In this document: positions 21,972 through 53,177 of the stretch, piece by piece
Numbering within the stretch: position 1 is the first letter of the stretch
How the letters are laid out: every line of letters starts with the position of its first letter
IMG/VR virus record: IMGVR_UViG_3300033463_000010
Coordinates: 32,001-96,000 of that record
DNA: 64,000 bases
From: a virus
Taxonomy: Duplodnaviria; Caudoviricetes
Direction: 5' to 3' (one strand)
Made by a program: the position numbers and the translations under genes
Notes under the pieces: generated by a model
Told to the model about the DNA's origin: nothing
The model's input: the letters and a program-made list of their open reading frames with translations, nothing else
Database searches by the model: none

Positions 21972-22358
21972 ATGCAGATGAACATTAAGGTTCACGAAGC
22001 GTCCAACAAATACAAGTTTTCCTATGGGGAAGAAATAGGAATTAAGACTTTTACTTCTAATTCCGCTATGCCCCTAGTGTCTTATGACAAGCAGATGGCG
22101 AAGTTCCGTAATGGTATTGACAATGTTCGTGTTTATCCTAACGGAACGGGTGATGGGATTTCGGTGCAGATTTTTTGTAGTTCCGATGAAGCCAGGTTTG
22201 CTACGCCCGATATTACGTCTATGAATATCAAGTATGTGGGCGATAGTAATAACTATGCTCAAATGATTCAAACGGCACTTTGCTATGTCGCTGACATTCT
22301 TGACTATCGTAAGTCTATCGTAGAAACGCTCAAGGCTTCGGGTGTTATTAACGGTTAG
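21972..22358 (+). CDS. Leader-bearing protein (MNIKVHEA), putative internal head protein
   Basis: AGGAGG RBS; class I leader. Confidence 0.65.
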   Translation: MQMNIKVHEASNKYKFSYGEEIGIKTFTSNSAMPLVSYDKQMAKFRNGIDNVRVYPNGTGDGISVQIFCSSDEARFATPDITSMNIKYVGDSNNYAQMIQTALCYVADILDYRKSIVETLKASGVING

Positions 22359-24960: not shown

Positions 24961-26004
24961 ATGCAGATTGCAGAAGACTATATTCCGTTTAAGTGTGAGT
25001 TCATTGACGACATTTCCCGTGTTGACGAATCCGCACAATCCGAAGTTGCTAAAAGTGGTGGCACCATTCTCGCCATTGTCAAGGGTCAGCATTTCTGCCC
25101 TGGCAAGGTAAGCCGTAACCACCGCCTTTATACTCCCGAACTTTGGGAAGAAGCAGGTAAGGACGAAGACGTGCAGCGTAAGTTGACCAACGGACAAATG
25201 TTCGGTCGTATCGGTCACGAAGCCGAAATTACCGACGAAGATATTGCCGACGGCAAGTTTAGCCACATTACCCGCAACATTGATTGGAAGACGGGTATCG
25301 CTGAATCTGTTATCTACAATACGGATATGGGTAAGACGCTTTACACTATCCTTCGTGCGGGCACTACTATGTTTGTCAGTTCCCGTGCCGATGGCGACTA
25401 CGAAGGTAAGGACGAAGACGGCAACGATATTCTTGACCCGAAGACCTACAAACTTGAACGCTTTGACTTTGTGCAGGACCCTGGGTTCCTGGACGCAAAG
25501 CCGAAGATGATTTCCGAAAGCAAGCAGAATGAAAAGATTGAAGAAACCGTCAAGGAACGTGTCGCAGAATCCCTGCTTTCGCTTGCAAAGGAACTTGGGG
25601 CACCCGTTGAACTTGACGGCAGCACCTACGTCGTAGAAAGCCTGGAAAAGAACACTGTTGAAATGACAGATTGTGACAAGGGCACAGGCGACACTTACAA
25701 GTTTGAAGACTTTACCGAAGTGACCGAAGACATTAAGCAGTCTATCGTGAAGTTCGTTGAAGGCTTGCAGGAAGAAGTGAAGCAGTCCGCAGACACTATC
25801 CGTGACTTGAAATTCGCTAACAAGAATGGCTTGAACGAAGCCTACGTGACCGAACGTCGTCGTGCAGGTGCTACTTACGAAGCGATTGAACGTGAGCAGC
25901 CCGAAACGCAGACCTTTAAGGTCCTGGAAGCAAAGGCACCCGCCCGTGAAGCCGAAGACAACGACGGGTCCTTGATTGGTTATATTCTCGGCAGCAAACG
26001 TTAA
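24961..26004 (+). CDS. Prohead maturation protease (T4 gp21-like)
   Basis: RNHRLY, FGRIGHE, FSHI, TDMGK, VSSRADG, FDFVQDPGF..A.P motifs. Confidence 0.9.
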   Translation: MQIAEDYIPFKCEFIDDISRVDESAQSEVAKSGGTILAIVKGQHFCPGKVSRNHRLYTPELWEEAGKDEDVQRKLTNGQMFGRIGHEAEITDEDIADGKFSHITRNIDWKTGIAESVIYNTDMGKTLYTILRAGTTMFVSSRADGDYEGKDEDGNDILDPKTYKLERFDFVQDPGFLDAKPKMISESKQNEKIEETVKERVAESLLSLAKELGAPVELDGSTYVVESLEKNTVEMTDCDKGTGDTYKFEDFTEVTEDIKQSIVKFVEGLQEEVKQSADTIRDLKFANKNGLNEAYVTERRRAGATYEAIEREQPETQTFKVLEAKAPAREAEDNDGSLIGYILGSKR

Positions 26005-26016
26005 GGATGGCTCATT

Positions 26017-26337
26017 ATGGCTAAAATGAAAATCAAGGTTCACGAAAGCAGTAAAAACGAAGAAAAAAGTGTCGTAGATTTGCTTGCGGTTATGGACACT
26101 CCAAAGTATAAGCAGGACTTTGAAAAGATTAAGGCTGCTTACGATAACTTTGAAAAACTTGCAGACAGCCTGGGCTATCGTATTGCGGTGGACCCCGATG
26201 AAGAATATCAAGCCGTCCTGCTTCCCAAGAGTATCGTGAATGACGTGTATTTGGACCAACACGCCAACGCTAAATTTTTGGATGGGACAAAGCCGTTGTC
26301 TAGCATAGTCCCTGTCGTATTAACGTATCATAAGTAG
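26017..26337 (+). CDS. Leader-bearing protein (MKIKVHES)
   Basis: Class I leader. Confidence 0.7.
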   Translation: MAKMKIKVHESSKNEEKSVVDLLAVMDTPKYKQDFEKIKAAYDNFEKLADSLGYRIAVDPDEEYQAVLLPKSIVNDVYLDQHANAKFLDGTKPLSSIVPVVLTYHK

Positions 26338-26347
26338 AGGGCTGTCT

Positions 26348-26614
26348 ATGCCAAAGTTGAAGATTATGGTCCACGAAGCCAAGTCCGACCTTGAAAAGCA
26401 GATTACGAAAGAATGTGTCCGTCTTGGATTGGACCGCCTGGTTAATCGTGGCTATTCTTCACGGATAGTCCCGACTTACGGCAATTACATTGAAAAACAC
26501 AAGGATGAACCTGTTGAACAAATCGCAAAGTATATCTACGACACGGAACAGCGTGAGTGGTTCAAAATGCGTGGCGGTTTCAATATGTTCGGTCTTTTTG
26601 GCAACAGAGGTTAA
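26348..26614 (+). CDS. Leader-bearing protein (LKIMVHEA)
   Basis: Class I leader. Confidence 0.7.
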   Translation: MPKLKIMVHEAKSDLEKQITKECVRLGLDRLVNRGYSSRIVPTYGNYIEKHKDEPVEQIAKYIYDTEQREWFKMRGGFNMFGLFGNRG

Positions 26615-26619
26615 GCACT

Positions 26620-27237
26620 ATGGCACTCCGAATTAACATACACGAAAGCAAGAAGACAGAAGCCCAGGGTCTTGTGTTTCTGCCCGATGGCTTGAAATCC
26701 GACATTGAATACGAACTCCCGTCGCTTTACAGGGCTAACGGACTTGCTGTGTTCAAGGGTAAGGAAGAAGTTGAACCCGACGCAGCCTGGGACGTAGAAG
26801 ATATGTCCTGGGACGTTGACGAAGCCACCGTGTGCGACGATTACCTTATGGTCGCTTTCAAGGACAATCCTGGTGCCGAAAAGGTCAAGTCCATTATGGC
26901 TGACGAATACAAAAAGGCTGTTCTGCCCGAAGCCCTGGAACTTGTCGGCTACATTGACGTGGGTGCCCTGCGTGACGCTTACGCCAAGCAGATTGTGGAC
27001 GCTACAAAGGGCAAGGAATTTGAACTAGGCTACTACCTGGGCGATATTAACGATATGGGTGACGTTCCTGGTGGAATTGACAATGCCTATACCGAAGACG
27101 GGGAAGTTAGTTGTATGGTCGGTGCTTTCGGTTTCGTCGTTGCCGAGGCTGCTAACGGCAGCGAAATCAAGGACACGCAGTCCGCAGACGAAGCCTTGAA
27201 GTTGGTTGAAGAAATGTATAACAAATACAAGGCGTAG
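26620..27237 (+). CDS. Leader-bearing acidic protein (LRINIHESKKTE)
   Basis: GAGG RBS; class I leader. Confidence 0.7.
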   Translation: MALRINIHESKKTEAQGLVFLPDGLKSDIEYELPSLYRANGLAVFKGKEEVEPDAAWDVEDMSWDVDEATVCDDYLMVAFKDNPGAEKVKSIMADEYKKAVLPEALELVGYIDVGALRDAYAKQIVDATKGKEFELGYYLGDINDMGDVPGGIDNAYTEDGEVSCMVGAFGFVVAEAANGSEIKDTQSADEALKLVEEMYNKYKA

Positions 27238-27245
27238 GGCTGTCT

Positions 27246-27635
27246 ATGGGCTTGAAGATTAAAATGCAAGAAGCGTCCAGGAATGACGAAATCCTGGGCT
27301 TGCTTTCGGAAAAGGGTTTTACCGTGGACCAGGAAGCAAGCGATAGGGAGGACCGCCTGGTAGCCTATAAGCAATATAAGGCTCACGGCTACTGCGTCGG
27401 GGATGTTACGTTAGTTGTCAAGTATGACGCATACGTGAACCGCAGCCTGTTTATGAACGTGCTGTCTAATAGTTATGCTAACATTAGACTTAAACGTTCC
27501 GATAGTATCTTTGAAACGTCTATCGTGGATAATCGGGATATGGTTAATCTTGAAGAAGCCCGTCGCTGTATCGGTAATGCCGAACGTGCGGTAAATATGT
27601 ATATTTCAGCATTAGAAACAATTTACGAGGTATAA
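27246..27635 (+). CDS. Leader-bearing protein (LKIKMQEA)
   Basis: Class I leader variant. Confidence 0.7.
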   Translation: MGLKIKMQEASRNDEILGLLSEKGFTVDQEASDREDRLVAYKQYKAHGYCVGDVTLVVKYDAYVNRSLFMNVLSNSYANIRLKRSDSIFETSIVDNRDMVNLEEARRCIGNAERAVNMYISALETIYEV

Positions 27636-30338: not shown

Positions 30339-31988
30339 ATGAAGACTTCCGTTGAAGAAATGTCTAATCAGAAATACAACCGCCTCGTAGAATCCTACGA
30401 AGCCCGCTATGGCAAGCAGTTTGAAGCCCTTGCCAAGTCCCCGTCGTTCAAGGGCACCTTGTCCAAGAACGCTATGTTCAACCTTGGTCAGCAGATGGAC
30501 AACTACAAGCGTTACGAAAGTTTCGTGAACGAAAATTCCTCGGCTTCTAGCCTTGGTGTGTTGCCCCGTGTTGCTCTTGACCTTATTTCTGCTACCTACG
30601 CACTTTCTATTGCTCCGCAGTTGGCAAGTGTGCAGACGCTTGAAGAATCCCAGGGTCTTATCTACTTCAAGAAGACCTTTACCCACGGCTATCCGCTGAC
30701 TGCCCAGGAAGGACTTCCGTCCCTGCCCGAAGACAGGTGGATGGGTGCCGACGGTAAGTTTGAAGGCGACAAGACTTTCGCAGGTGCCTGGAAGAAGTGG
30801 CTTGACACCCGTGGTCGTCCCGTTGCAGGTCCCGACACCGAACTGACTGCCGAACAACTCGCAGCCAAGAACTTTGACGCTATCACTTTCAACGCCCTCA
30901 AGGGTTGGCAGGCTTCCCCGACGCAGTATATGAGCGAACGTCAGTTTGCTATCGCTGCCGACGGTTCCGCTACCATTAAGTATGGCGTGGGCAACCTCCG
31001 TTGGAACACCCCGATTAACGTCCGTCTTGTTGACAAGAACGGCAACGTTGAAGACGTGGTTGGTGTTTGCGGTGGTCCTGGTCAGTTGCCGACTTTCTAT
31101 GGTAAGGTTTCCGTGACCGCTGCTGCTGTTGGTCCCGACCTTGTTCTTACCATTCCGACGGGCTACCAGGGTGGCGTGACTTATGACGTTGACTTTGAAA
31201 AGGCTCCCGACGTTCCTGCTATTGAATACGCTCTTGACAACAAGGTTGTCAGTGCCGAAATCATTGGCTTGAAGGAAATGATGGGCACGTTCAAGTCTTT
31301 CCAATTCAACAAGCGTTTTGGTAAGGCTGCGTCCGACGAAGTTCTTGCTGACCTTACGGGTCATATGGCTATGGCTGAATCCGAAAAGATTCTTGCTGCC
31401 TATGTCCGTTGTGCTAACAAGTGGAAGCCGATTACCTGGAATCTCAACAAGACCGCAGGTATCAGCGAATTTGAACACCGTCAGTCTTTCCTGTATGCTA
31501 TCCAGGCTGCTTCTGCTGCTATCGGTAGCCGTGCAGGTAAGGGTCACGCTAACAAGATTGTTGCGGGCTACGTCGCTTGTCAGTATATTGCGTCCCTCCC
31601 TGGTTTCCGTCTTGCTCCGCAGACCAACCTTGTGGGTCCGCACGTGTATGGCACTCTTGAAAACGAAGGTATCACGGTTATCCGTTCCAACACCATCGTT
31701 GCCCCGAACGAAGTTATCTGTGCTTACAGCAGCGATAACAGCCCGTTTGAAGCACCTGTTGTGTGTGCAACGTATATGCCTGTGTTCCTCACCGACACTA
31801 TGCCTGTTGCCGACAACCCGTTCCAAACGCAGCGAGCAATCGCTTCTTGGAAGGCTATTGAACCTGTGGTTGCCGAATTTGTGCAGCGTATCGTCATCAC
31901 AAATGATGCCGAAGCACCTGCCGACGTGAACGTGTTCCTTACTACCACCCCGAACGGTGGCAGCGGTAGCGGTTCTAGCAACGGCTAA
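30339..31988 (+). CDS. Major capsid protein (T4 gp23-like)
   Basis: LDLI..TY..SIA..LASVQTL...QGLIY; GHANKIVAG; GTL; V.ATYMPV pattern; strong codon bias. Confidence 0.9.
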   Translation: MKTSVEEMSNQKYNRLVESYEARYGKQFEALAKSPSFKGTLSKNAMFNLGQQMDNYKRYESFVNENSSASSLGVLPRVALDLISATYALSIAPQLASVQTLEESQGLIYFKKTFTHGYPLTAQEGLPSLPEDRWMGADGKFEGDKTFAGAWKKWLDTRGRPVAGPDTELTAEQLAAKNFDAITFNALKGWQASPTQYMSERQFAIAADGSATIKYGVGNLRWNTPINVRLVDKNGNVEDVVGVCGGPGQLPTFYGKVSVTAAAVGPDLVLTIPTGYQGGVTYDVDFEKAPDVPAIEYALDNKVVSAEIIGLKEMMGTFKSFQFNKRFGKAASDEVLADLTGHMAMAESEKILAAYVRCANKWKPITWNLNKTAGISEFEHRQSFLYAIQAASAAIGSRAGKGHANKIVAGYVACQYIASLPGFRLAPQTNLVGPHVYGTLENEGITVIRSNTIVAPNEVICAYSSDNSPFEAPVVCATYMPVFLTDTMPVADNPFQTQRAIASWKAIEPVVAEFVQRIVITNDAEAPADVNVFLTTTPNGGSGSGSSNG

Positions 31989-32281: not shown

Positions 32282-33289
32282 ATGTCTAACAAGCATTTCA
32301 AGATAGTTGTTAAAGAAGCAAAGAAGAATGAAAGTAAGTCCGACGGTGAACGTGCCGTGGACGACTATGATACCCTTATTGACGGTCTAAAAGAATTGGG
32401 ATTTGAGCCGTCGTCCAATGTTCGTAACGGTAAGATTTATCCGTATAGAACAAGGTTCACTGCGACCAAAGACGGCATTAAGTATGGCTTTACTCTTAAT
32501 GAAGACCTCACAGGCGAATATCTTGAATCCATTGAAGTCGTTGGTGGAAGCATTTACACGGGCGACCCAAATGACAAGGACGCTAGGGTGTTTAAGTCCG
32601 TCGGTGAAGTCCTTGACGCTTTGAAGCAGGTTGACGGTAAGAAGTCCGAGGCTATGGATATGTCTAGGGCGAAGCAGATTGTAATGGGTGACACTCGCCA
32701 CAACCCTAAAACGGTTGCTGAGGAAATTGCGTGGTCTGCGTGGGTTGAAAGCGACGGGCACCCTAAAGCATTATTGCGTAAGGCTGCTAGGGATTACTAT
32801 AATAGCGGGCTATTGGCTTCTGCTGAAAGGGCACGTTATTTGTTGGACACCTATACAGACGAAATGCGTGAACTTTATAAGGAATTTACGTCGTCGGTTG
32901 AACCTGCTGAAGTTGCGTCCACAGGTGAAGTTATCCCGTGGAGTTCTTTTGAAGATATGTCTTCTAAAAATGAAGCTGACGCAGAAGCCTTTATTCAGTG
33001 GATTACTGAAAATGTTGCACGTAAGTTGGTTCGCTATGCTAGTGAGTCAATGAAGTCCGAAAGCCTTTCGCTCAAACAGAAAGAACTTAAAGATATGGCA
33101 CGTTATGGCGAAGCCGAAGACATTACTACCATATCCGACGCAGAAGCAAAGGAACTTCGCAAGAAGGGCGTTGAAACGGTGGGTGTTAGCCGTGGGACCT
33201 ACGGAATGAACGGTGCCTTGCTCCGTGACAAGGACGGCAATAAATACGTGATTACCGCCCGCAGCTCTAACCTGTTCTACTTTGTATAA
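32282..33289 (+). CDS. Leader-bearing three-domain polyprotein-like protein
   Basis: FKIVVKEAKKNES leader; KKSEA and SESMKSES linkers. Confidence 0.7.
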   Translation: MSNKHFKIVVKEAKKNESKSDGERAVDDYDTLIDGLKELGFEPSSNVRNGKIYPYRTRFTATKDGIKYGFTLNEDLTGEYLESIEVVGGSIYTGDPNDKDARVFKSVGEVLDALKQVDGKKSEAMDMSRAKQIVMGDTRHNPKTVAEEIAWSAWVESDGHPKALLRKAARDYYNSGLLASAERARYLLDTYTDEMRELYKEFTSSVEPAEVASTGEVIPWSSFEDMSSKNEADAEAFIQWITENVARKLVRYASESMKSESLSLKQKELKDMARYGEAEDITTISDAEAKELRKKGVETVGVSRGTYGMNGALLRDKDGNKYVITARSSNLFYFV

Positions 33290-34766: not shown

Positions 34767-35969
34767 CTAACTTACAGCAACATTCGTCGCTGATGGTTTC
34801 GGGCATTCTCGGTTTTGAAGCCGAGCATTGTTTAAGACTTCGGCAGGTCCCCCGCCTAGTGTCTTCTTAACTCCAAGATACAGAATGTTCCGTGCAGCGT
34901 TTACGTCCCTGTCGTGTTCGGCATTACATACAGGGCATACCCACCGCTTCACGCCTAGCACGACTTCGGGGTTTACGTTCCCGCACACATTACAAGTCTT
35001 GCTTGTATATTGTGCGGGGACTTTGACCAGGTTCGTCTTGTAGGACAGGTATTGCCGAAGCAACCCGAACCCCTGGTCACTGACAACTTTCCCGTGTTCT
35101 TCTTCGGATGACATCTTCTGTAAATTTATGTCTTCCACGAACACGTATTGGTATCTGTCAGCCAGGTCACGGCTTACCTTGTGCAGCCAATCCCTGCGTT
35201 GGTTGACTACCTTTTCGTGCAGCCGTGCAACTTTGGACTTGGCACGGTAATACCTCTTGGACTGCACGTCCTTGCCCTTTACGAACCTGCGGGATTGGAC
35301 CTGTTGGTATTTCTCCAACTGCCGTTCTTTCCTTGTCAAGAAGCGAGGGCACTTGACTTTCGTGCCGTCGCTCAAAGTGAGGAACGAATCGTCGGAGCAG
35401 TTCCAATCTATCCCGACCGCCTTTCCGTTCTGTATTTTAGTTTGTTCTTCTTTAAGTTCTACGCAAATCTTGACATACCATTTCCCGCTTGCAGACCGCT
35501 TGAACGTTATGTTCTTCCACTTGCCCTTGCAGAACTGCGATGATGCGTGGATAGGTATGTAGCCTAATTTTCGTGTGACGTATAAACCTTTTTTTGAAAG
35601 ATACGCTGAATTATTCTGTATGTGATACCGAAACGATACTTTTTCGTTTCGTTTACATTTATATGTCGGTTGGTGTGAAAATGTAGAAGGTTTGTTGCTT
35701 TTTAATGATTTGTAGAAATTAGAATACGCCCCACGTATATCCATCCAAGTTTGTGTTAGTGGTATGGTATCTATTTCTTTAACCCATTCAAGTGCTTCGG
35801 GTTTAAATTTTGTAAATGTCGGTTTGTAACCCTCTATAAGAATTTTGTGATTTTCGTTTTTATTTTTAACAATAATGTTGTAGTATAATCGGCATAGACC
35901 TAGTGTCTTGTTAAAAATAGACACTTGTTCTTTAGTAGGATAGATTCTATATTCGTATGCCTTAAACAT
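34767..35969 (-). CDS. tnpB: TnpB RNA-guided endonuclease, IS200/IS605 type (tnpB-2)
   Basis: KAYEYRIYPT, GIDWN, VEDINL, CNVCG/CPVC, DRDVNAARNI; end GATAGTTCAA at 34731; promoter TTGACG-17-TATATT at 36028-36000. Confidence 0.92.
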   Translation of the reverse strand: MFKAYEYRIYPTKEQVSIFNKTLGLCRLYYNIIVKNKNENHKILIEGYKPTFTKFKPEALEWVKEIDTIPLTQTWMDIRGAYSNFYKSLKSNKPSTFSHQPTYKCKRNEKVSFRYHIQNNSAYLSKKGLYVTRKLGYIPIHASSQFCKGKWKNITFKRSASGKWYVKICVELKEEQTKIQNGKAVGIDWNCSDDSFLTLSDGTKVKCPRFLTRKERQLEKYQQVQSRRFVKGKDVQSKRYYRAKSKVARLHEKVVNQRRDWLHKVSRDLADRYQYVFVEDINLQKMSSEEEHGKVVSDQGFGLLRQYLSYKTNLVKVPAQYTSKTCNVCGNVNPEVVLGVKRWVCPVCNAEHDRDVNAARNILYLGVKKTLGGGPAEVLNNARLQNRECPKPSATNVAVS

Positions 35970-36861: not shown

Positions 36862-37677
36862 ATGTCTAAAATGAAAATCAAGGTCCACGAAAGAAATTCC
36901 GATAATGACCCGCAGCGTTTCTACGATAAATTGAACCCTGCTGAAAAGCGTCGTTTTGACGGGCTTGCCGACACGGTTGAAGCCCTGGTTGGTGTGTTTG
37001 ACGAAAACGGAAAATTGTCTAAACCGCAGCAAGACCAACTCAAGGAAGCCAGGGACACGATTTACGTGTTTGGCTATGCAGCCAGGGGCTATGTAAGTCT
37101 TGCCGACGAAGTTCTTGCCAACTATGGCGTGGAACCTTTGCTTGACCCGAACGAACCTGTCTTTGGCGAATCCAAAAAGAACGAAGACACCGACGACGCA
37201 GCCGAAGCACTCGCAAAGGAACTAGGGGTTTCTGTTGACAAGGTTTCGGATAGCTCCCAGGACTATGACTATTATGAACTCGATTACACGTATGACGTTG
37301 AATTGACGGACGGCACGACTGCTACTTACCTTGTGTATGATAATCAGCAGTCTGCTATTGACGCTGCTGCGGACGATTTGGGTGAACGTTTCCACGACGA
37401 CAGTAGCATACTTGGGGCAGCTATTGAATACTTCGGCTTCGGGACGCTTTCCGATTATTTGAACGGATATGACGACGAAATGGCTGACCTTGAAAGTCTT
37501 TGTGACGACGTGAGTTCCGAAGAATTTGCACGTATGTTGCAGCAGCGGGGCGGTTTGGATTACCGTGGGTTTGCTGAATACAACATAGGTGAACTTGGGG
37601 CTGCTTGGCACCTTTCCAATTATGACGGCAAAGAAGTTGAACTTGAAAACGGTATGCTCGCATATCGTGTAGATTAA
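36862..37677 (+). CDS. Leader-bearing two-domain protein (MKIKVHER; GESKKNED linker)
   Basis: Class I leader; very acidic C-domain ending HLSNYDGKE...YRVD. Confidence 0.72.
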   Translation: MSKMKIKVHERNSDNDPQRFYDKLNPAEKRRFDGLADTVEALVGVFDENGKLSKPQQDQLKEARDTIYVFGYAARGYVSLADEVLANYGVEPLLDPNEPVFGESKKNEDTDDAAEALAKELGVSVDKVSDSSQDYDYYELDYTYDVELTDGTTATYLVYDNQQSAIDAAADDLGERFHDDSSILGAAIEYFGFGTLSDYLNGYDDEMADLESLCDDVSSEEFARMLQQRGGLDYRGFAEYNIGELGAAWHLSNYDGKEVELENGMLAYRVD

Positions 37678-37689
37678 GGGAGTAAGTAT

Positions 37690-39195
37690 ATGTCTTTGAA
37701 AATCAAAACACATAAGTTTGAAAGCCGTGTAGCTCCCGCTGCACAGCGTCGTCCGTTTGGTCGTATGGCTGAATCCAAAAAGTCCGAAGCTACAAGTTTC
37801 GGTGCGGGAATGTCTAAACGCACGGACCTGTCCAAAATGCGTAATTTGGGTGAAGTCATAGACGTTCTTGAAGAACACAAAAAACTTATGGAAAATAAGG
37901 CAAAGGATTTGTCGCAAAGCAAGGAAGACTTGCAGGCTGCGATTAAGTCCCTTAACGAATTTTCCAAACACGTCCTGTTCTTGAAGCAGCAGTCCGTAAA
38001 GGGTATCAAGGACGCACTCACGTTCAACAAGTCCCCCGAAGTCAAGGCTGCTGCCGATATTGAAAAGCACTTGAAGAATGCTCTTAAAATCCTTTACTCC
38101 GATTATGAGAACATTCCCGACGTTACTCAACTGCTGACAGTTGTTGACAGTCGGTATGCTACCCGTGGTGACAAGGTTGTGACCGCCTGGGTTGACAATG
38201 CGACCCGTGCTATTGAAGTGGACGCAAAGACGATTAAGGACAGCATCGCTGCGGGCGATATGTCCGAAGACGACGTTGTGAAACTTGTGACGGTTACTTA
38301 TGCTACCCACGGTGTCAAGAACAAGGACACCGTTGAAAAGGTAACGCCTGTCCTTGAACGTATGAACGCCTTGCTTGCTTCGGCTCCGAAGATTGAAGAA
38401 GCGGTCATTGACCCGAAGGAATTTAAGGAACTCCGTGACCTTGTGGAACAGATTGTTAAGGAAGCGTCCGAACCGACGCTTACTGTCAAGACTGCTATCA
38501 CTACGCTTTCAAAGGGCGAACTCGCAACCGTCCCGTCCGAAGCGTTTGTGTCCGAGGGTCTGCTTGACAAACTCAAAGACCTTGTGGCTTCTCTCAAGGA
38601 CAAGATTTCGTCCCTGTGGAACTCGTTTACTTCCCTGTTCTTCAACCTGGAAGACGAAGCCCTTGAATCGGCTGAAACGTTTGCCGAAGTTGAAGAAGGC
38701 TTTGCCATTATGGGCATTGTCGTTGAATCCTACGTTGCAAAGAGTGTTCCGCTCGGCAAGCAGTTTGAAGTCCTTACGAAGTCCGTGCTTCACTGCTGCG
38801 ATAAACTTGTCAAGGACGCTTCCCTTGCGGGCGAATTTGACGACGAAGTGATTTACGCAGAAGAAGCCGTCAATAATGCCGTTGAGTCGTTCCAGGCTCT
38901 CGGTGAAGCCTGCAAGACTTTGAAGAACGCATTGTCGTATCACAAAAACGAAGACAATATGAACGTTATCGGTATTCTTGCGGACGCTATCACGCAGATT
39001 GTGAACGACGACAATGGCAGTGCCGATACGGAAGGTGGCGACGACTCCGAAGACGACGAAAATTCTGTAATCCGTGACGTTGAAAAGGAATATAGCCCCG
39101 CAGGTGGCGAGGGCGGTGAAGAAGGTCCCGAAGCGAACGGTGGCGAGAACGAAGCCCCGAACCCCGCTGAAATGGGCGAACCCGAAACGTTCTAG
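37690..39195 (+). CDS. Leader-bearing helical protein, putative prohead core/inner-body protein
   Basis: MSLKIKTHKFES, MAESKKSEA; coiled-coil rich. Confidence 0.65.
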   Translation: MSLKIKTHKFESRVAPAAQRRPFGRMAESKKSEATSFGAGMSKRTDLSKMRNLGEVIDVLEEHKKLMENKAKDLSQSKEDLQAAIKSLNEFSKHVLFLKQQSVKGIKDALTFNKSPEVKAAADIEKHLKNALKILYSDYENIPDVTQLLTVVDSRYATRGDKVVTAWVDNATRAIEVDAKTIKDSIAAGDMSEDDVVKLVTVTYATHGVKNKDTVEKVTPVLERMNALLASAPKIEEAVIDPKEFKELRDLVEQIVKEASEPTLTVKTAITTLSKGELATVPSEAFVSEGLLDKLKDLVASLKDKISSLWNSFTSLFFNLEDEALESAETFAEVEEGFAIMGIVVESYVAKSVPLGKQFEVLTKSVLHCCDKLVKDASLAGEFDDEVIYAEEAVNNAVESFQALGEACKTLKNALSYHKNEDNMNVIGILADAITQIVNDDNGSADTEGGDDSEDDENSVIRDVEKEYSPAGGEGGEEGPEANGGENEAPNPAEMGEPETF

Positions 39196-43815: not shown

Positions 43816-45111
43816 ATGAAGACGTTGAAACTAGCCATAACGAATAACCCCGACCTGTCGGATGTTATAAGAGTGTATAGCAGTATGTTCCGTATGGCTT
43901 ACAATCGTCTTCAAGAGGGTTGTTCCGAGAATACTACGTGGCACAAAATTAAAGAAATTTTCGGTGTAAACTGTTGGCTTGCCTCGTCTGCTGCAAAGGA
44001 AGCACACGGGGTAGTTACGCTTAACAAGGGTAAGAAAGTCTTGTTTGGGGGTAAGTGGAACTTAAAGCAATACCTTAAAGGCTTGATTACCAAAGAGCAG
44101 TTTAAGCATAAGCGGTTGGTGCCCTTATGCAGTATAGGGGAAAAACAATATGCAGGGAACCGCCTGTTTGACTTTGACTTTAATAATCGGACTGTTGTGT
44201 TCAAGCCTGGTAACGGTGTCCGTAAGGAAATACAGTTCTGCCCCGTTAAGAAGAAACTAGCACAAGAGTTAGCCAAAGTTCAAGAGTTAGCCGAACAGAA
44301 GAAAATGCCCGTGACCGTGAAGTTCACGGACAAGCATTTATACCTTACTTACGACGAATCCTTGATTTATAACGAAGCATACAAGAACTTAAAGCACAAC
44401 CGTGTTTTGGGAATAGATATGAACCCCAATTATGTCGGGGTTTCCGTTATTGAGTTTGATAAGAACGACGAATTTAAAATACTGCACAAGGTAGTGTTTG
44501 ACCTAACCGCACTTACGAAGCCTAGCGGTAAGGCAAGCACGGATAAGAAATCCAAATACTTTACGAACAAGCTGAAGCACGAAACTATCGCTATTGCTCA
44601 CAAGATTAACAAGTTGGTGGACTATTGGAAGTGTAGTAAACTAGCCATTGAAGACCTGTCTATAAAACCGAAAGACCAAAATAAGGGCAGGACGTTTAAT
44701 CGCTTGTGTAATAACAGGTGGGAACGTCAACTGTTCGTGAACAAGCTGAAAATGTTGGCTAATATCCACAGGTATGAGCTAGTTGAAGTCAATCCTGCCT
44801 ATTCTTCAATCGTGGGCAACTTTGCATACGGTAGTCCCGATACTCCCGATATGGTTGCGTCCTCTATTGAAATAGCACGTAGGGCTTACAAGAAATTTGA
44901 GAAGGGATGGTTCTATCCCGGGTTTAACGTTGAACGAACAGACGAGCAATGGAAGCAAACGCTGTCGGGAGTGAAAACCTGGAAAGAACTGTTCCGAAAA
45001 GTCAAAGAAACGGGACTCAAATACCGTTTCCTGCTATCCGACTATGTTGGAAATGTAGTCTTGAGTATCTTCTATAGTAAACAGAAGTGGAAATTACTAC
45101 TTTTTAATTAA
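43816..45111 (+). CDS. TnpB-related RuvC nuclease lacking a zinc ribbon (tnpB-3)
   Basis: LGIDMNP, IEDLS, VNPAYSS, PDMVASSIEIARR; paralogue of 51882-53177. Confidence 0.82.
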   Translation: MKTLKLAITNNPDLSDVIRVYSSMFRMAYNRLQEGCSENTTWHKIKEIFGVNCWLASSAAKEAHGVVTLNKGKKVLFGGKWNLKQYLKGLITKEQFKHKRLVPLCSIGEKQYAGNRLFDFDFNNRTVVFKPGNGVRKEIQFCPVKKKLAQELAKVQELAEQKKMPVTVKFTDKHLYLTYDESLIYNEAYKNLKHNRVLGIDMNPNYVGVSVIEFDKNDEFKILHKVVFDLTALTKPSGKASTDKKSKYFTNKLKHETIAIAHKINKLVDYWKCSKLAIEDLSIKPKDQNKGRTFNRLCNNRWERQLFVNKLKMLANIHRYELVEVNPAYSSIVGNFAYGSPDTPDMVASSIEIARRAYKKFEKGWFYPGFNVERTDEQWKQTLSGVKTWKELFRKVKETGLKYRFLLSDYVGNVVLSIFYSKQKWKLLLFN

Positions 45112-50830: not shown

Positions 50831-50977
50831 TAATGGCTTAATCACAGTCTGCACAGTTTATTCACAGTTGTTAATATACTATATTTGAAATAGGGTGCCC
50901 CAAATGTTCTATTGGGTTTAACGTGTTACCTCTTGTTAATGGGGCACCCCAAAATTTTTTACTAGGAGTGACCGCCT

Positions 50978-51718
50978 ATGTCTTTGAAGATACGACTTCA
51001 CGAATCAAGCGTGACCCGCATTATGTCACACTTGAAGAACTACGACTGCGGGACCATTACTGCGTTCCGTGGAACCTGTGCAAACGCTACGGACAACACC
51101 CTGGATTCCGTCAAGGAATACGAGGGTAAGTCTATCCCGCTTTCTGTAAAGAAGCAGTGGAACCGTGACTTGAAAGCAGCCCTGCTCAAGTTGGGCTACG
51201 GTGTGACCGCTATCAAGGGTCGCTACCGTGAAGACGGTTGGGACACCGCTTCGGACGAAGAATCGTTCTTTGTCGTGAACCTTACCGACGACCCCGACTT
51301 TATCAAGAATATGGCTCGCCTGGGCGAAGCCTACAACCAGGACAGTATCTTGATTAAGGAAAAGGGCAGTGACAACGCCTACCTGTTGGGAACCAACACT
51401 AGCGAGGGTGACTTTGACCCCGCCCTGGGCGAAACGCAGGACATTGGTAAGCTGCACGTAAATATCCCGTTGGACTACCTGGGTGCTTCGTCCGTTATCG
51501 GTAACAAGGCATTCATTTTCAAGGGTGACGACGAAAGCAAGAACGAAGCCAACGGCAATCCGTTTTCGCTTGACACGTTCTTTGCTTACGGCAATTACAG
51601 CAAGAGCGGTATTGCCCAACGTGCGAAGCCCGTGTTGGAAGCCCTGGGTCTGCCGACAAGTCGTCCGATAGCTGCATACAAGCAGGCGTTGGAAAATGCG
51701 GTTTCTTTTAATAAGTAA
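50978..51718 (+). CDS. Putative SAM lyase (T3 SAMase-like) with class I leader
   Basis: LKIRLHES leader; ITAFR, GRYRE, EE, ARL, QDSIL in the order recalled for T3 SAMase. Confidence 0.6.
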   Translation: MSLKIRLHESSVTRIMSHLKNYDCGTITAFRGTCANATDNTLDSVKEYEGKSIPLSVKKQWNRDLKAALLKLGYGVTAIKGRYREDGWDTASDEESFFVVNLTDDPDFIKNMARLGEAYNQDSILIKEKGSDNAYLLGTNTSEGDFDPALGETQDIGKLHVNIPLDYLGASSVIGNKAFIFKGDDESKNEANGNPFSLDTFFAYGNYSKSGIAQRAKPVLEALGLPTSRPIAAYKQALENAVSFNK

Positions 51719-51881: not shown

Positions 51882-53177
51882 TTATGCAAAAAGGTAACGT
51901 TCCCATTTTTGCGAATGATTGCGTTTACTCAAGACTGCATTTCCGATATAGTCGGATAGCAGGAATCTATATTTCAGTTTAGACTCTTTAATTTTAAGGA
52001 ATAGACTCTTCCAGGTTTTCACTCCCGACAGCGTTTGCTTCCATTGCTCGTCTGTTCGTTCAACGTTAAACTTTGGATAGAACCATCCCTTTTCAAACTT
52101 CTTGTATGCCCTACGTGCTATTTCAATGCTCGCTGCCACCATATCGGGAGTTGTAGGGCTACCGTATGCAAAATTCCCAACGATTGAAGAATAGGCAGGA
52201 TTTACTTCAACTAACTCATACTTGTGTATTCCTGCGAGCATCTTCAACTTGTTTATGAATAACTGTTTTTCCCACTTGTTGTTGCATAAACGATTGAATG
52301 TCTTGCCTTTCTTTTGGTCTTTGGGCTTAATACTTAAATCTTCTACTGCAAGTTTACTGCACTTCCAATAATCTACAAGTCTGTTAATCTTGTGGGCTAT
52401 GGCTAGGGTTTCGTGCTTCAACTTATTCGTATAGTATTTAGACTTTGTATCGGTGCTTGCCATACCACTAGGTTTTGTAAGACGTGAGAGGTCATATACT
52501 TCCTTGTGAAGCACTCTAAATTCGTCGTGGTTGTCAAACTCAATAACAGATACACCTATGTAGTTAGGGTTCATATCTATGCCCAAGACACGATTGTGCT
52601 TCAATCCCTTGTAGGCTTCGTTGTAAATCAAGGATTCATCGTAGGTAAGGAACAGGTGCTTGTCCGTGAACTTCACGGTTACGGGCATCTTCTTTTGGTC
52701 TGTAAGTTCTTGAACTTTTGCTAGTTCGTCGGCTAACTTCTTTTTTACAGGACAGAATTGTATTTCTTTATGGATGCTGCTAGAGGGCTTATACTCTATG
52801 CGGTTGTGGGTTAAATCAAAGTTTATGAGTCTGTTGCCCTTATGGTTTTTGCACCCTACGCTGCAAACAGGGTTCATTCGGTTATAAGTGTATTGTTCCC
52901 TGGTTATGTGCTTTGTTAAGTATTGTTTAAGATTATGTATTCCCCCAAAAACGATATGCCTGCTTTTTACGGAATCAAATAAGTTGTGTGCTTCTTTTGT
53001 TGCTGAAAGTATTATCCAACAGTTCACTTGGAAATGCTTTGATACCCGTGCATATACTTCTGTTTCGGGCATTCCGTCTTGAAAGCGATTAAACGCCATA
53101 CGAACCGCACTGCTAAATACACGCATATCATTTAGCACGTCGGGTCTGTTTATTATTTTTAGTTTTACCGTTCTCAC
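51882..53177 (-). CDS. TnpB-related RuvC nuclease lacking a zinc ribbon (tnpB-4)
   Basis: LGIDMNP, VEDLS, VNPAYSS, PDMVAASIEIARR; C-terminal two thirds highly similar to tnpB-3. Confidence 0.82.
   Translation of the reverse strand: MRTVKLKIINRPDVLNDMRVFSSAVRMAFNRFQDGMPETEVYARVSKHFQVNCWIILSATKEAHNLFDSVKSRHIVFGGIHNLKQYLTKHITREQYTYNRMNPVCSVGCKNHKGNRLINFDLTHNRIEYKPSSSIHKEIQFCPVKKKLADELAKVQELTDQKKMPVTVKFTDKHLFLTYDESLIYNEAYKGLKHNRVLGIDMNPNYIGVSVIEFDNHDEFRVLHKEVYDLSRLTKPSGMASTDTKSKYYTNKLKHETLAIAHKINRLVDYWKCSKLAVEDLSIKPKDQKKGKTFNRLCNNKWEKQLFINKLKMLAGIHKYELVEVNPAYSSIVGNFAYGSPTTPDMVAASIEIARRAYKKFEKGWFYPKFNVERTDEQWKQTLSGVKTWKSLFLKIKESKLKYRFLLSDYIGNAVLSKRNHSQKWERYLFA

What the first reader, a model, noticed from the sequence alone, without database searches (positions are those of the whole stretch)
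50978..51718. A T3 SAMase-like SAM lyase carrying the virion-loading tag
Seen: after MSLKIRLHES the protein has ITAFR, GRYRE, EE, ARL and QDSIL. From memory of T3 gp0.3 (SAFR, GCYRE, EE, ARL, QDCVL), the motifs match in order; no alignment was run. Established: T3 SAM lyase depletes SAM and counters type I R-M and BREX, but it is made after entry. Inference: here it may be pre-packaged and co-injected, giving immediate anti-defence activity. It is the one cargo with a recognisable function and so anchors the payload model.
Basis: partly seen in the sequence, partly recalled or inferred. Interest (0 to 1): 0.82.

Follow-up and report, generated by a model that had tools for sequence, protein, structure and literature searches.

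The report
Head-tagged SAM lyase of a jumbo phage
A 213-kb uncultured phage encodes a T3-type enzyme that destroys the methyl donor SAM, carrying a nine-residue leader that marks at least 16 of its other proteins and fits its T4-type head protease's cut motif, so the enzyme is probably loaded into the capsid and injected with the DNA to blunt SAM-dependent host defences, though no experiment shows this for this phage.

Summary
ORF 50978-51718 (+) encodes 246 aa, and all five recalled motifs align in register with real T3 gp0.3.

**It is a T3-type SAM lyase.**
- Pfam PF23780: 46.8 bits against a cutoff of 28.
- Family profile vs T3 gp0.3: E=8e-6.
- Predicted fold: Z=12.1 to T3 SAM lyase, against 5.3 for Svi3-3 and 4.1 for a SAM-AMP lyase.
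- The substrate-binding residues are kept.

**The leader MSLKIRLHE is a real peptide-level tag.**
- 15 strict copies sit at ORF starts genome-wide, against 0 in shuffles; about 17 with variants.
- It ends V/I/L-H-E, matching T4 gp21's L/I-X-E rule.
- The phage has a gp21-family protease and a gp23-type capsid protein.
- 8 of 17 tagged ORFs lie in that head module.
- A tag-less relative begins at the predicted cut.

**Packaging is inferred, not shown.** A published virion proteome (cyanophage S-CREM2, 2023) detected a homolog whose junction aligns with this one. A Campylobacter phage proteome did not detect its homolog.

**Novelty is moderate.** A virion-borne SAM lyase has precedent, and this scan has flagged leader-tagged SAM lyases on other phage DNA before. 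This one is a new variant, with a different tag in a rumen-type jumbo phage. Activity, cleavage and delivery are untested.

The parts
50880..50887 (+). TATATTTG promoter-like element, 98 nt upstream of the ATG. It lacks the TTGAC and 'ggtaatttgt' elements of the phage's early-promoter class.
   Evidence: 15 early-type sites share TTGACa...ggtaatttgtTATATTTA, and this site does not. Function not shown.
50893..50949 (+). 10-bp GC-rich stem (50893-50902 pairing with 50940-50949) in the leader, followed by a T-run.
   Evidence: MFE -25.7 kcal/mol, z=-1.7 against shuffles (not significant). Role unknown.
50964..50968 (+). Shine-Dalgarno AGGAG, 9 nt before the ATG.
   Evidence: Read directly from the sequence. 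Similar GGAG/AGAGG boxes precede other tagged ORFs.
50978..51004 (+). N-terminal tag MSLKIRLHE (residues 1-9). Putative capsid-targeting propeptide, with a predicted cut after Glu9 (P3 Leu7, P1 Glu9).
   Evidence: recurrence, amino-acid-level conservation; disordered, pLDDT 37; tag-less relative starts MNE|SSITRIM; junction aligned with virion protein S-CREM2 gp6.
51011..51526 (+). T3-type SAM lyase core (residues 12-183): beta-barrel with two outer helices.
   Evidence: PF23780; hhalign to T3 gp0.3; Foldseek 7OCK/8BB1, E=1e-4; VIA Z=12.1, rmsd 3.1 A, 136 residues.
51218..51226 (+). Codons for G81-R82-Y83, equivalent to T3 G55/Y57 and Svi3-3 G56/Y58 (ribose packing; cation-pi to the sulfonium).
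   Evidence: G81 invariant in 39 homologs; alignment; residue roles from PMC7877911.
51257..51262 (+). Codons for E94-E95, equivalent to T3 E67/E68 and Svi3-3 E69 (key substrate-orienting Glu).
   Evidence: E94 at least 90% conserved; alignment; mutant data in PMC7877911 and bioRxiv 10.1101/2023.02.27.530186. Register uncertain by one residue.
51338..51343 (+). Codons for Q121-D122, equivalent to T3 Q94/D95 and Svi3-3 Q104/E105.
   Evidence: Both invariant in 39 homologs; alignment; T3 E68Q/Q94A is catalytically dead.
51530..51550 (+). Hinge DESKNEA (residues 185-191), one copy of the phage's ESK(K)xE linker. Possible second processing site.
   Evidence: residues 182-195 have pLDDT below 50; 13 copies against 1-2 expected, 9 in head-module or tagged ORFs. 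Cleavage is speculative.
51563..51718 (+). C-terminal helical hairpin (residues 196-246) plus stop codon. Absent from T3 gp0.3. Function unknown.
   Evidence: helices 206-223 and 231-245, pLDDT 85-91; amphipathic helix conserved in the long-form subfamily.
24961..26004 (+). Prohead maturation protease, gp21 family. The enzyme proposed to remove the tag.
   Evidence: phrog_207 'head maturation protease', E=3.6e-22. Pfam Peptidase_S77 E=1.4e-4, 21.9 bits (below the cutoff of 27) but covering profile positions 21-197 of 198.
30339..31988 (+). Major capsid protein, T4 gp23 type, with a V63-N64-E65 site.
   Evidence: PF07068 Gp23, 40.6 bits against a cutoff of 24.4; phrog_138 major head protein. 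Sequence.
21972..22358 (+). Tagged ORF MQMNIKVHEA..., 128 aa.
   Evidence: no Pfam hit.
26017..27635 (+). Four consecutive tagged ORFs directly after the protease: 26017 MAKMKIKVHES, 26348 MPKLKIMVHEA, 26620 MALRINIHES, 27246 MGLKIKMQEA.
   Evidence: no Pfam hits.
32282..33289 (+). Tagged ORF MSNKHFKIVVKEA..., 335 aa, directly after the capsid gene.
   Evidence: no Pfam or PHROG hit.
36862..39195 (+). Tagged ORF MSKMKIKVHER (271 aa), and a variant-tag ORF MSLKIKTHKFES (501 aa) with an acidic C-terminal tail.
   Evidence: no significant family hits.

Best explanation
The gene encodes a precursor of a T3-type S-adenosylmethionine lyase.

Shown by computation:
- Residues 12-183 have the T3 SAM lyase fold and keep the residues that bind and orient SAM: G81, Y83, E94/E95, Q121, D122.
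- The first nine residues (MSLKIRLHE) are a separable peptide tag. At least 16 other, mostly unrelated, ORFs of the same 213-kb phage carry it.
- The tag ends in hydrophobic-His-Glu.
- The phage encodes a gp21-family prohead protease and a gp23-type capsid protein.

Inferred:
- As with the T4 capsid-targeting sequence on the internal proteins and Alt, the tag takes the precursor into the assembling prohead core.
- The protease cuts after Glu9. The mature enzyme then starts SSVTRIM..., which is where a natural tag-less relative starts.
- There may be a second cut in the DESKNEA hinge.
- Tens to hundreds of copies stay in the head and leave with the DNA.
- In the new host the enzyme cleaves SAM to methylthioadenosine and homoserine lactone before any phage gene is expressed. 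This weakens SAM-dependent defences such as type I/III restriction and BREX.
For: Enzyme identity:
- PF23780 at 46.8 bits against a cutoff of 28.
- All 67 database homologs carry PF23780.
- hhalign to T3 gp0.3: E=8e-6, motifs in register.
- Foldseek top five hits are all T3 SAM lyase chains.
- VIA-align Z=12.1 over 136 of 147 residues; the next unrelated hit scores 5.6.
- R31, G81, E85, S96, Q121 and D122 are invariant in 39 homologs.
- Residue roles come from PMC7877911 and bioRxiv 10.1101/2023.02.27.530186.

The tag is real and acts as a peptide:
- 15 strict copies at ORF starts against 0 in 20 shuffles.
- The invariant Ile uses its three codons 5/6/5, Leu uses six codons, and Ser uses both codon families.

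Link to the head:
- P3 is V/I/L and P1 is Glu. This fits gp21's L/I-X-E rule and the 10-residue CTS (PMC9026906; PMC8442874).
- Protease: phrog_207, E=3.6e-22.
- MCP: Pfam Gp23.
- 8 of 17 tagged ORFs lie in the 17-kb head module, P=2e-5. Four of them directly follow the protease.

Modularity:
- Relatives at 45% identity keep the tag in three different gene contexts.
- Three relatives carry the tag five residues upstream of the family junction.
- Tag-less P0012 (62% identity) starts MNE|SSITRIM and is nested inside the tagged clade, supports 0.989 and 0.933.
- The tag is disordered in the model.

Precedent:
- S-CREM2 gp6 'SAM hydrolase' was found in CsCl-purified virions by MS (PMC10665884).
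- It belongs to the same subfamily (hhalign E=2.2e-17). Its LEE|SSLSR aligns with LHE|SSVTR here.
- Across homologs the junction has Glu at P1 (57 cases) and L/I/V/M at P3 (58 cases).

Timing and dose:
- The gene lacks the phage's early-promoter signature and follows the baseplate block.
- At 200 copies and 9.5 per second, a 0.1-0.4 mM SAM pool would clear in 30-130 s without resynthesis.
Against: - No virion proteome, cleavage map, activity assay or expression data exist for this phage.
- Pfam Peptidase_S77 is below its curated cutoff. The protease's specificity is assumed from T4.
- The tag does not resemble the T4 CTS in sequence, so it is an analogue at best.
- The conserved Glu-Ser junction also occurs in homologs with leaders of only 2-5 residues (MNE, MKLQE, MKILE). 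Its conservation may therefore be partly structural.
- The Campylobacter phage IBB_35 homolog (gene 5-9) was not among 38 virion proteins found by MS.
- Homologs in Alishewanella and Paraglaciecola phages sit among small, early-looking genes.
- Late timing of this gene is only suggested.
- Host MetK could refill the pool: about 7000 copies per E. coli cell are cited in bioRxiv 10.1101/2023.02.27.530186. An injected dose may give only a head start.
Confidence: 0.55

Rival explanations
1. The protein is an ordinary intracellular SAM lyase made during infection. The shared N-terminal tag serves something other than capsid loading, for example localisation, regulated turnover (an N-terminal degron), or co-translational control of a gene class.
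For: - No direct evidence of packaging.
- The tag is unlike the T4 CTS in sequence.
- 9 of 17 tagged ORFs lie outside the head module.
- The gene has its own promoter-like element and structured leader.
- Homologs in other phages lie among early-looking genes.
- The IBB_35 homolog was not detected in virions.
Against: - The tag ends in the gp21-type motif, and four tagged ORFs directly follow the protease gene.
- Clustering in the head module has P=2e-5.
- A subfamily member with an aligned junction is a virion protein.
- The tag has no hydrophobic stretch that would suggest secretion or membrane targeting (sequence).
- The gene lacks the early-promoter signature.
Confidence: 0.2
2. The tag does take the protein into the prohead and is cut. 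However, the protein acts there or in the producer cell, as a core or scaffold-associated component or a late-acting SAM sink. It is degraded or retained rather than delivered as an active enzyme.
For: - In T4, gp22, gp67 and gp68 are also gp21 substrates but are degraded (PMC9958956).
- The protein has a second candidate site in its hinge.
- Several tagged ORFs next to the protease are small and could be core proteins.
Against: - An intact, conserved catalytic core under selection is not expected of a disposable scaffold.
- T4 cargo that is cut only at the leader (IPs, Alt, CTS fusions) stays in the head and is delivered (PMC9026906).
- No further V/I/L-x-E-rich degradation pattern was examined.
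Confidence: 0.12
3. The enzyme's physiological substrate is not SAM. It may be a SAM derivative such as the type III CRISPR signal SAM-AMP, which would make it an anti-CRISPR rather than an anti-restriction or anti-BREX factor.
For: - Phage SAM-lyase-family proteins with extra N-terminal parts can be SAM-AMP-specific (AcrIIIB4; PMC12255297).
- SAM-AMP signalling was found in Bacteroides fragilis. The phage's closest database relatives are Prevotella megaphages.
- The conserved Glu and Gln are shared by both enzyme types.
Against: - The fold is far closer to T3 SAM lyase (Z=12.1) than to C. botulinum SAM-AMP lyase (Z=4.1) or to trimeric Svi3-3 (Z=5.3).
- The characterised SAM-AMP lyases are trimeric PII-like proteins, whereas T3-type enzymes are monomeric barrels.
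- Pfam places the protein in the T3 family.
Confidence: 0.1

Closest known systems
Bacteriophage T3 SAM lyase (SAMase, gp0.3; PDB 7OCK, 8BB1; Pfam PF23780)
   Same: - Same Pfam family, above threshold.
- Same beta-barrel fold (Z=12.1, 136 of 147 residues).
- Same motif order, with G/Y, E-E and Q-D substrate-binding residues.
- Expected chemistry: SAM to MTA plus homoserine lactone. Expected role against SAM-dependent restriction and BREX.
   Different: - T3 gp0.3 is 152 aa, has no leader, and is the first early gene made after entry.
- This protein is 246 aa. It adds a 9-residue shared tag, a 28-residue insertion after the first strand, and a 50-residue C-terminal helical hairpin.
- It lies next to structural genes.
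- Only 13-19% identity in structural alignments.
- MetK binding through the T3 N-terminal tail is unknown here.
T4 capsid-targeting sequence cargo: internal proteins IPI/II/III and Alt, cut by gp21
   Same: - A short N-terminal leader of about 10 residues shared by unrelated proteins.
- The leader ends in hydrophobic-X-Glu.
- The phage has a gp21-family protease and a gp23-type capsid.
- Cargo includes an anti-defence function, as with IPI* against GmrSD.
   Different: - The tag sequence (h-K-I-K/R-h-H-E) is unrelated to MKTYQEFIAE.
- About 17 carriers, against a handful in T4.
- The cargo is a metabolite-degrading enzyme.
- Loading and cleavage are not demonstrated.
Synechococcus phage S-CREM2 gp6 'SAM hydrolase' (virion protein by MS; PMC10665884)
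   Same: - Same long-form PF23780 subfamily (hhalign E=2.2e-17).
- A leader followed by the same junction: LEE|SSLSR there, LHE|SSVTR here.
- Encoded by a phage with T4-type head genes.
   Different: - gp6 is 414 aa with a T4-CTS-like leader (MKDFDSFLEE...) and a long Lys-rich C-terminal extension.
- Its host is a cyanobacterium.
- It is 28% identical over 131 residues.
- The paper reports presence in virions but gives no loading mechanism.
Svi3-3-type trimeric SAM lyases and C. botulinum / phage SAM-AMP lyases (PDB 6ZM9, 9GAD)
   Same: Distantly related ferredoxin-like/PII-like core, with a conserved Glu and Gln contacting the methionine moiety.
   Different: - Weak structural match (Z=5.3 and 4.1).
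- Those enzymes are trimers with active sites between subunits.
- The T3 type is a monomeric nine-stranded barrel.

Membership tests
T3-type SAM lyase (Pfam PF23780 S-AdoMet_lyase) | Sequence match to the family model above the curated threshold | tested here: met
   46.8 bits against a cutoff of 28, E=3.6e-12; hhalign to T3 gp0.3, E=8e-6 over 114 columns.
T3-type SAM lyase (Pfam PF23780 S-AdoMet_lyase) | T3 SAM lyase fold (beta-barrel with two outer helices) | tested here: met
   Foldseek top five hits are T3 SAM lyase chains (E=1e-4 to 3e-3). VIA Z=12.1, rmsd 3.1 A, 136 of 147 residues. This is a predicted model (pLDDT 77.9).
T3-type SAM lyase (Pfam PF23780 S-AdoMet_lyase) | Conserved substrate-binding residues (T3 G55, Y57, E68, Q94, D95; Svi3-3 G56, Y58, E69, Q104, E105) | tested here: met
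   G81, Y83, E94/E95, Q121 and D122 are present and aligned. The register of the Glu pair is uncertain by one residue. Residue roles.
T3-type SAM lyase (Pfam PF23780 S-AdoMet_lyase) | Cleaves SAM to MTA plus homoserine lactone | not testable with these tools
   Needs an enzyme assay.
T3-type SAM lyase (Pfam PF23780 S-AdoMet_lyase) | Binds and inhibits host MetK through its N-terminal tail (T3-specific second function) | not tested
   Host unknown. The N-terminal region differs from T3 residues 1-9.
T4-type capsid-targeted cargo (CTS proteins) | Short N-terminal leader shared by otherwise unrelated proteins of one phage | tested here: met
   15 strict copies against 0 in shuffles, about 17 with variants. 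Conservation is at the amino-acid level.
T4-type capsid-targeted cargo (CTS proteins) | Leader ends in the prohead protease motif (hydrophobic-X-Glu) | tested here: met
   P3 is V/I/L/M in 14 of 16, P1 is Glu in 16 of 16, P1' is Ser/Ala in 13 of 16. The rule is taken from PMC9026906.
T4-type capsid-targeted cargo (CTS proteins) | Phage encodes a gp21-family protease and a gp23-type capsid protein | tested here: met
   phrog_207, E=3.6e-22. PF03420 at 21.9 bits, below the cutoff of 27. PF07068 at 40.6 bits against 24.4.
T4-type capsid-targeted cargo (CTS proteins) | Sequence similarity of the leader to the T4 CTS (MKTYQEFIAE) | tested here: not met
   The consensus h-K-I-K/R-h-H-E shares only the final hydrophobic-X-Glu with the T4 CTS. 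It works like a CTS at best and is not a homologous tag.
T4-type capsid-targeted cargo (CTS proteins) | Leader removed by the protease; mature protein present in virions and delivered to the host | not testable with these tools
   There is indirect precedent only: S-CREM2 gp6 in virions. The IBB_35 homolog was not detected.
T4-type capsid-targeted cargo (CTS proteins) | Late expression together with head genes | tested here: inconclusive
   the early-promoter signature is absent and only a bare TATATTTG is present; the gene follows the baseplate block.
SAM-AMP lyase (C. botulinum type; phage AcrIIIB4) | Trimeric PII-like fold with a T-loop adapted to the AMP moiety | tested here: inconclusive
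   Z=4.1 to 9GAD, against 12.1 to T3 SAM lyase. Substrate preference cannot be read from a model.

The most novel reading that the evidence does not exclude
The whole long-form PF23780 subfamily may be a widespread class of capsid-delivered SAM lyases. These are the proteins whose core starts at the conserved hydrophobic-X-Glu|Ser-Ser-Leu-Ser-Arg junction. On this reading the junction is a universal gp21-type cut site. Each phage lineage (T4-like cyanophages, marine myoviruses, Lak megaphages, this rumen jumbo clade) has attached its own address leader in front of it. The same anti-defence enzyme would then move between phages by swapping or dropping a tag of about 10 residues.
Probability: 0.3. 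Interest if true: 0.72.

Novelty: new variant of a known kind. Interest (0 to 1): 0.56.

Why it matters
If confirmed, this phage delivers a metabolite-destroying enzyme with its DNA, so SAM-dependent defences are attacked before any phage gene is transcribed. T3 achieves the same end only through early expression and slow genome entry.

The finding also supplies a natural set of comparisons:
- tagged versions;
- a tag-displaced version, with the tag five residues upstream of the junction;
- a tag-less version of one enzyme.

Together these delimit a short, portable capsid-loading tag in an uncultured jumbo-phage clade. That is the only functional foothold for interpreting the other tagged proteins (at least 16), none of which has a recognisable enzymatic function. 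It could also guide cargo-loading designs beyond T4.

Novelty is tempered. A homolog has already been seen in cyanophage virions (2023), and the T4 CTS concept is decades old.

Tried and rejected
- phmmer of the single protein against PDB sequences found nothing. The family profile found only T3 SAM lyase, at a marginal E=0.05. The fold search then settled the question.
- The genome search with PF03420 on the phage genome found no candidate, and its controls rang nowhere. This was uninformative. hmmscan on the ORF itself later found the protease.
- PHROGs on ten large structural-looking ORFs gave no hits. The phage is very divergent.
- megablast of 8 kb against GenBank phages gave no match.
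- A viral-contig scan for M-x-x-K-I-K-V-H-E found only 4 scattered hits.
- Lak-C1 has zero copies of the tag pattern, so the tag is not shared with Lak megaphages.
- mRNA-level explanation of the tag: rejected, because synonymous codons vary freely at conserved residues. The invariant CAC-GAA is largely explained by codon bias: GAA 87%, CAC 66%.
- Stop-codon recoding as in Lak phages: a crude ORF-length comparison gave no sign that any one stop is read through. The ORF itself contains no in-frame stop.
- Trimer prediction (complex prediction): not run. T3-type SAM lyase is a monomeric barrel, so a trimer test would address the wrong family. No complex job was sent.
- Family-wide packaging: not supported as a rule. 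The IBB_35 homolog is absent from a 38-protein virion list, and some homologs have leaders of only 2-5 residues.
- The treekit run returned no answer. It was replaced by MAFFT plus FastTree on 24 sequences, with leaders removed and a midpoint root. The remaining homologs were left out for speed.
- The 5' leader hairpin is not significant against shuffles (z=-1.7).
Full report
**The observation**

Window 50978-51718 (+) is an ATG-to-TAA ORF of 246 aa. An AGGAG box sits 9 nt upstream, and an in-frame stop lies two codons before the ATG. The N-terminus MSLKIRLHES is therefore not an annotation choice.

I took the real T3 gp0.3 from NC_003298. It has VSAFR, GCYRE, EE, ARL and QDCVL in the same order. 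hhalign of a 39-sequence family profile against it aligns all five in register (E=8e-6, 114 columns).

**What the protein is**

| Test | Result |
|---|---|
| Pfam PF23780 (S-AdoMet lyase) | 46.8 bits, cutoff 28, E=3.6e-12 |
| Large protein database | all 67 homologs carry PF23780 |
| AlphaFold2 model from the alignment | pLDDT 77.9, pTM 0.77 |
| Foldseek vs PDB | top five hits are T3 SAM lyase chains |
| VIA-align, T3 SAM lyase | Z=12.1, rmsd 3.1 Å, 136 of 147 residues, model 12-183 |
| VIA-align, best unrelated chain | Z=5.6 |
| VIA-align, Svi3-3 | Z=5.3 |
| VIA-align, C. botulinum SAM-AMP lyase | Z=4.1 |

- Validated SAM lyases strictly share only a Gly, a Glu and a Gln, plus a Tyr and an acidic residue (PMC7877911).
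- In T3, E68, Q94 and D95 matter, and E68Q/Q94A is catalytically dead (bioRxiv 10.1101/2023.02.27.530186).
- The equivalents here are G81, Y83, E94/E95, Q121 and D122. G81, Q121 and D122 are invariant in 39 homologs and E94 is conserved in at least 90%.
- The register of the Glu pair is uncertain by one residue.
- Membership in the T3-type family is met on every feature I could test. Catalysis itself is untested.

Compared with the 152-aa T3 enzyme, this protein adds four things:
- a nine-residue leader;
- a 28-residue insertion after the first strand;
- a disordered hinge (182-195);
- a confident C-terminal helical hairpin (196-246), function unknown.

**The tag**

- A motif scan of the whole 213,231-bp genome finds [LMF]-[KR]-I-x-[VIL]-H-E at the start of 15 ORFs of at least 80 aa. 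Twenty dinucleotide-preserving random genomes gave none.
- Variants (MLKIIPHEA, MSLKIKTHKFES) bring the count to about 17.
- The five other core matches in six frames are weak and not at ORF starts.
- Conservation is at the peptide level. The invariant Ile uses ATA/ATT/ATC 5/6/5 times, Leu uses six codons, and Ser uses both AGC and TCN.
- Consensus around the Glu: P3 is V/I/L, P2 is His (14 of 16), P1 is Glu (16 of 16), P1' is Ser or Ala.
- In the model the first ten residues are disordered.

**Link to the head**

- ORF 24961-26004 is a head maturation protease: phrog_207, E=3.6e-22. Pfam Peptidase_S77, the T4 gp21 family, scores 21.9 bits. That is below the cutoff of 27 but covers profile positions 21-197 of 198.
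- ORF 30339-31988 is a T4 gp23-type major capsid protein (PF07068, 40.6 bits against 24.4). It has V-N-E at residues 63-65. T4 gp23 loses 65 residues (PMC9958956).
- T4 gp21 cuts after L/I-X-E. The first 10 residues of IPIII are a sufficient capsid-targeting sequence. CTS fusions are packaged at 20-200 copies and delivered into the host (PMC9026906). The CTS sequence is MKTYQEFIAE (PMC8442874).
- The tag here has the same length and the same terminal rule, but an unrelated sequence.
- Four tagged ORFs directly follow the protease gene. Eight of 17 lie in the 17-kb head module, which is 8% of the genome (binomial P=2e-5).
- None of the tagged proteins I scanned has a significant family hit, apart from an Lcl_C domain protein outside the window. 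The SAM lyase is therefore the only tagged protein with a recognisable enzymatic function.

**The tag is a separable module**

- Relatives at about 45% identity keep it (MPLTIRLHE, MTIKIKVNE, MSLKIKVNE...). They do so in three different gene contexts: after the baseplate block, between helicase genes, and after an intein-bearing gene.
- One of those contigs also has a tagged Fib_succ_major-domain protein, MLKIRVHERLNE.... It resembles the tagged ORF at genome position 23403.
- In three relatives the tag sits five residues upstream of the family's conserved Glu-Ser junction.
- P0012, at 62% identity, has a clean SD and ATG and an upstream stop. It starts MNE|SSITRIM, exactly at the predicted cut in this protein (LHE|SSVTRIM). 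It lies among methylase and other early-looking genes, with no tagged neighbours.
- In a FastTree of 24 cores with leaders removed, P0012 is nested inside the tagged clade (supports 0.989 and 0.933, midpoint root). The tag was probably ancestral to the clade and later lost, and the enzyme does not need it.

**The wider family**

- Almost all homologs have a leader of variable length (median about 13 residues). It ends in L/I/V/M-X-Glu just before a conserved SSLSR helix.
- Several leaders look like the T4 CTS: MKTFSEFLGE in Paraglaciecola GD virus 1, and MQFKQYILGE in Microcystis phage Mel-JY01.
CsCl-purified virions of the T4-like cyanophage S-CREM2 contain a 'SAM hydrolase (ORF6)' by MS (PMC10665884).
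- That protein is in this subfamily (hhalign E=2.2e-17; BLASTP E=2e-9). It starts MKDFDSFLEEFDRDQESLEE|SSLSR, and its junction aligns residue for residue with LHE|SSVTR.
- Against a family-wide rule:
  - the Campylobacter phage IBB_35 homolog (gene 5-9) is not among 38 virion proteins, though three of its neighbours are;
  - some leaders are only 2-5 residues long;
  - homologs in Alishewanella and Paraglaciecola phages sit among small, early-looking genes.
- The Lak megaphage homolog has a 31-residue leader ending LNE|KSLNR, and its genome has no KIKVHE tags.

**Timing and dose**

- The phage has a sharp early-promoter class, TTGACa...ggtaatttgtTATATTTA, 40-50 nt before small ORFs, at 15 sites.
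- The SAM lyase gene lacks it and has only a bare TATATTTG at -98. It also follows the baseplate block (PF12322 neighbour).
- This suggests non-early expression but does not prove it.
- With the Svi3-3 turnover of 9.5 per second, 200 injected copies would clear a 0.1-0.4 mM SAM pool in a 1 fL cell in 30-130 s if nothing refilled it. The pool size and cell volume are my own assumptions.
- MetK resynthesis would compete, so the injected dose is best seen as a head start.

**A possible second site**

The hinge DESKNEA (185-191) is one of 13 ESK(K)xE motifs, against 1-2 expected. Nine lie in head-module or tagged ORFs. In ORF 26620 the tag's Glu is the motif's first Glu. Its residues do not fit the hydrophobic-P3 rule, so cleavage there is speculative.

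**Verdict**

- That this is a T3-type SAM lyase homolog is near certain.
- That it is active on SAM is likely. SAM-AMP is a minor rival, given Z=12.1 against 4.1.
- That the tag is a capsid-loading, protease-removed leader is the best explanation but is inferred.
- Delivery and early anti-defence action are one step further removed.
- Against the literature this is a new variant of known kinds: T3 SAM lyase, T4 CTS cargo, and one published virion-borne homolog.
- This scan has noted leader-tagged SAM lyases on other phage DNA before.

Noticed in passing
window 14851-16089 (+), 34767-35969 (-), 43816-45111 (+), 51882-53177 (-); L006:8680-9876; L004:10905-12122: Four TnpB/IS605-OrfB-like ORFs lie in the window, one immediately downstream of the SAM lyase gene on the opposite strand. 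Among contigs that encode the identical SAM lyase, the insertions differ: a 398-aa TnpB just upstream in L006, a 405-aa ORF downstream in L004, and none upstream in L004 or L005. The flanks of this gene are therefore a hot spot for these elements.
   Followed up: partly
window 27638, 28700 (also internal, near residue 155) and 33316: A second recurring N-terminal motif, (T)CSMQKKKES(L/F)A, heads three head-module ORFs and recurs inside one of them. It may be a second leader or processing module, distinct from the KIKVHE tag.
   Followed up: no
genome-wide; in the window at 26644, 28013, 33613, 34303, 37168, 37771, 51533: The ESK(K)xE linker motif occurs 13 times against 1-2 expected. It is concentrated in head-module and tagged ORFs, often at apparent domain boundaries.
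   Followed up: partly
genome C1, e.g. 93160, 94268, 132491(-), 135271(-), 145616(-), 153184(-): There are 15 near-identical promoter-like sites (aattacctaTTGACa-N9-ggtaatttgtTATATTTAgggt), each 40-50 nt before a small ORF. This looks like a strong early-promoter class. A separate 'aataatgTATATTTAgg' class sits 12 nt before the TnpB-like ORFs and a few other ORFs.
   Followed up: partly
window 30339-31988: The gp23-type major capsid protein has V-N-E at residues 63-65, the same distance from the N-terminus as the T4 gp23 maturation cut. It also has L-V-E at residues 16-18.
   Followed up: no
genome C1:23403-23783 (L007:404-781); L018:431-964: A tagged 126-aa protein with an Lcl_C/DUF1566-type domain (PF07603, E=1.4e-10). 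A tagged Fib_succ_major-domain protein with a near-identical leader (MLKIRVHERLNE) occurs in a distant relative's contig.
   Followed up: partly
L024:2450-3691 (S-CREM2 gp6): The virion-detected cyanophage homolog carries a C-terminal extension of about 230 residues that is very Lys-rich, reminiscent of the highly basic T4 internal proteins. It lies next to a DNA adenine methylase and an EcoRI-like endonuclease gene.
   Followed up: no
window 50893-50949: A perfect 10-bp GC-rich stem with a 37-nt loop, followed by a T-run, lies between the promoter-like TATATTTG and the SD of the SAM lyase gene. It could be the upstream operon's terminator or a regulatory leader. It is not significant against shuffles.
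   Followed up: partly
L011:1417-2286 (Prevotella phage Lak-C1): Lak megaphages encode a 289-aa member of the same SAM lyase subfamily, with a 31-residue leader ending LNE|KSLNR. It is unannotated in GenBank.
   Followed up: partly
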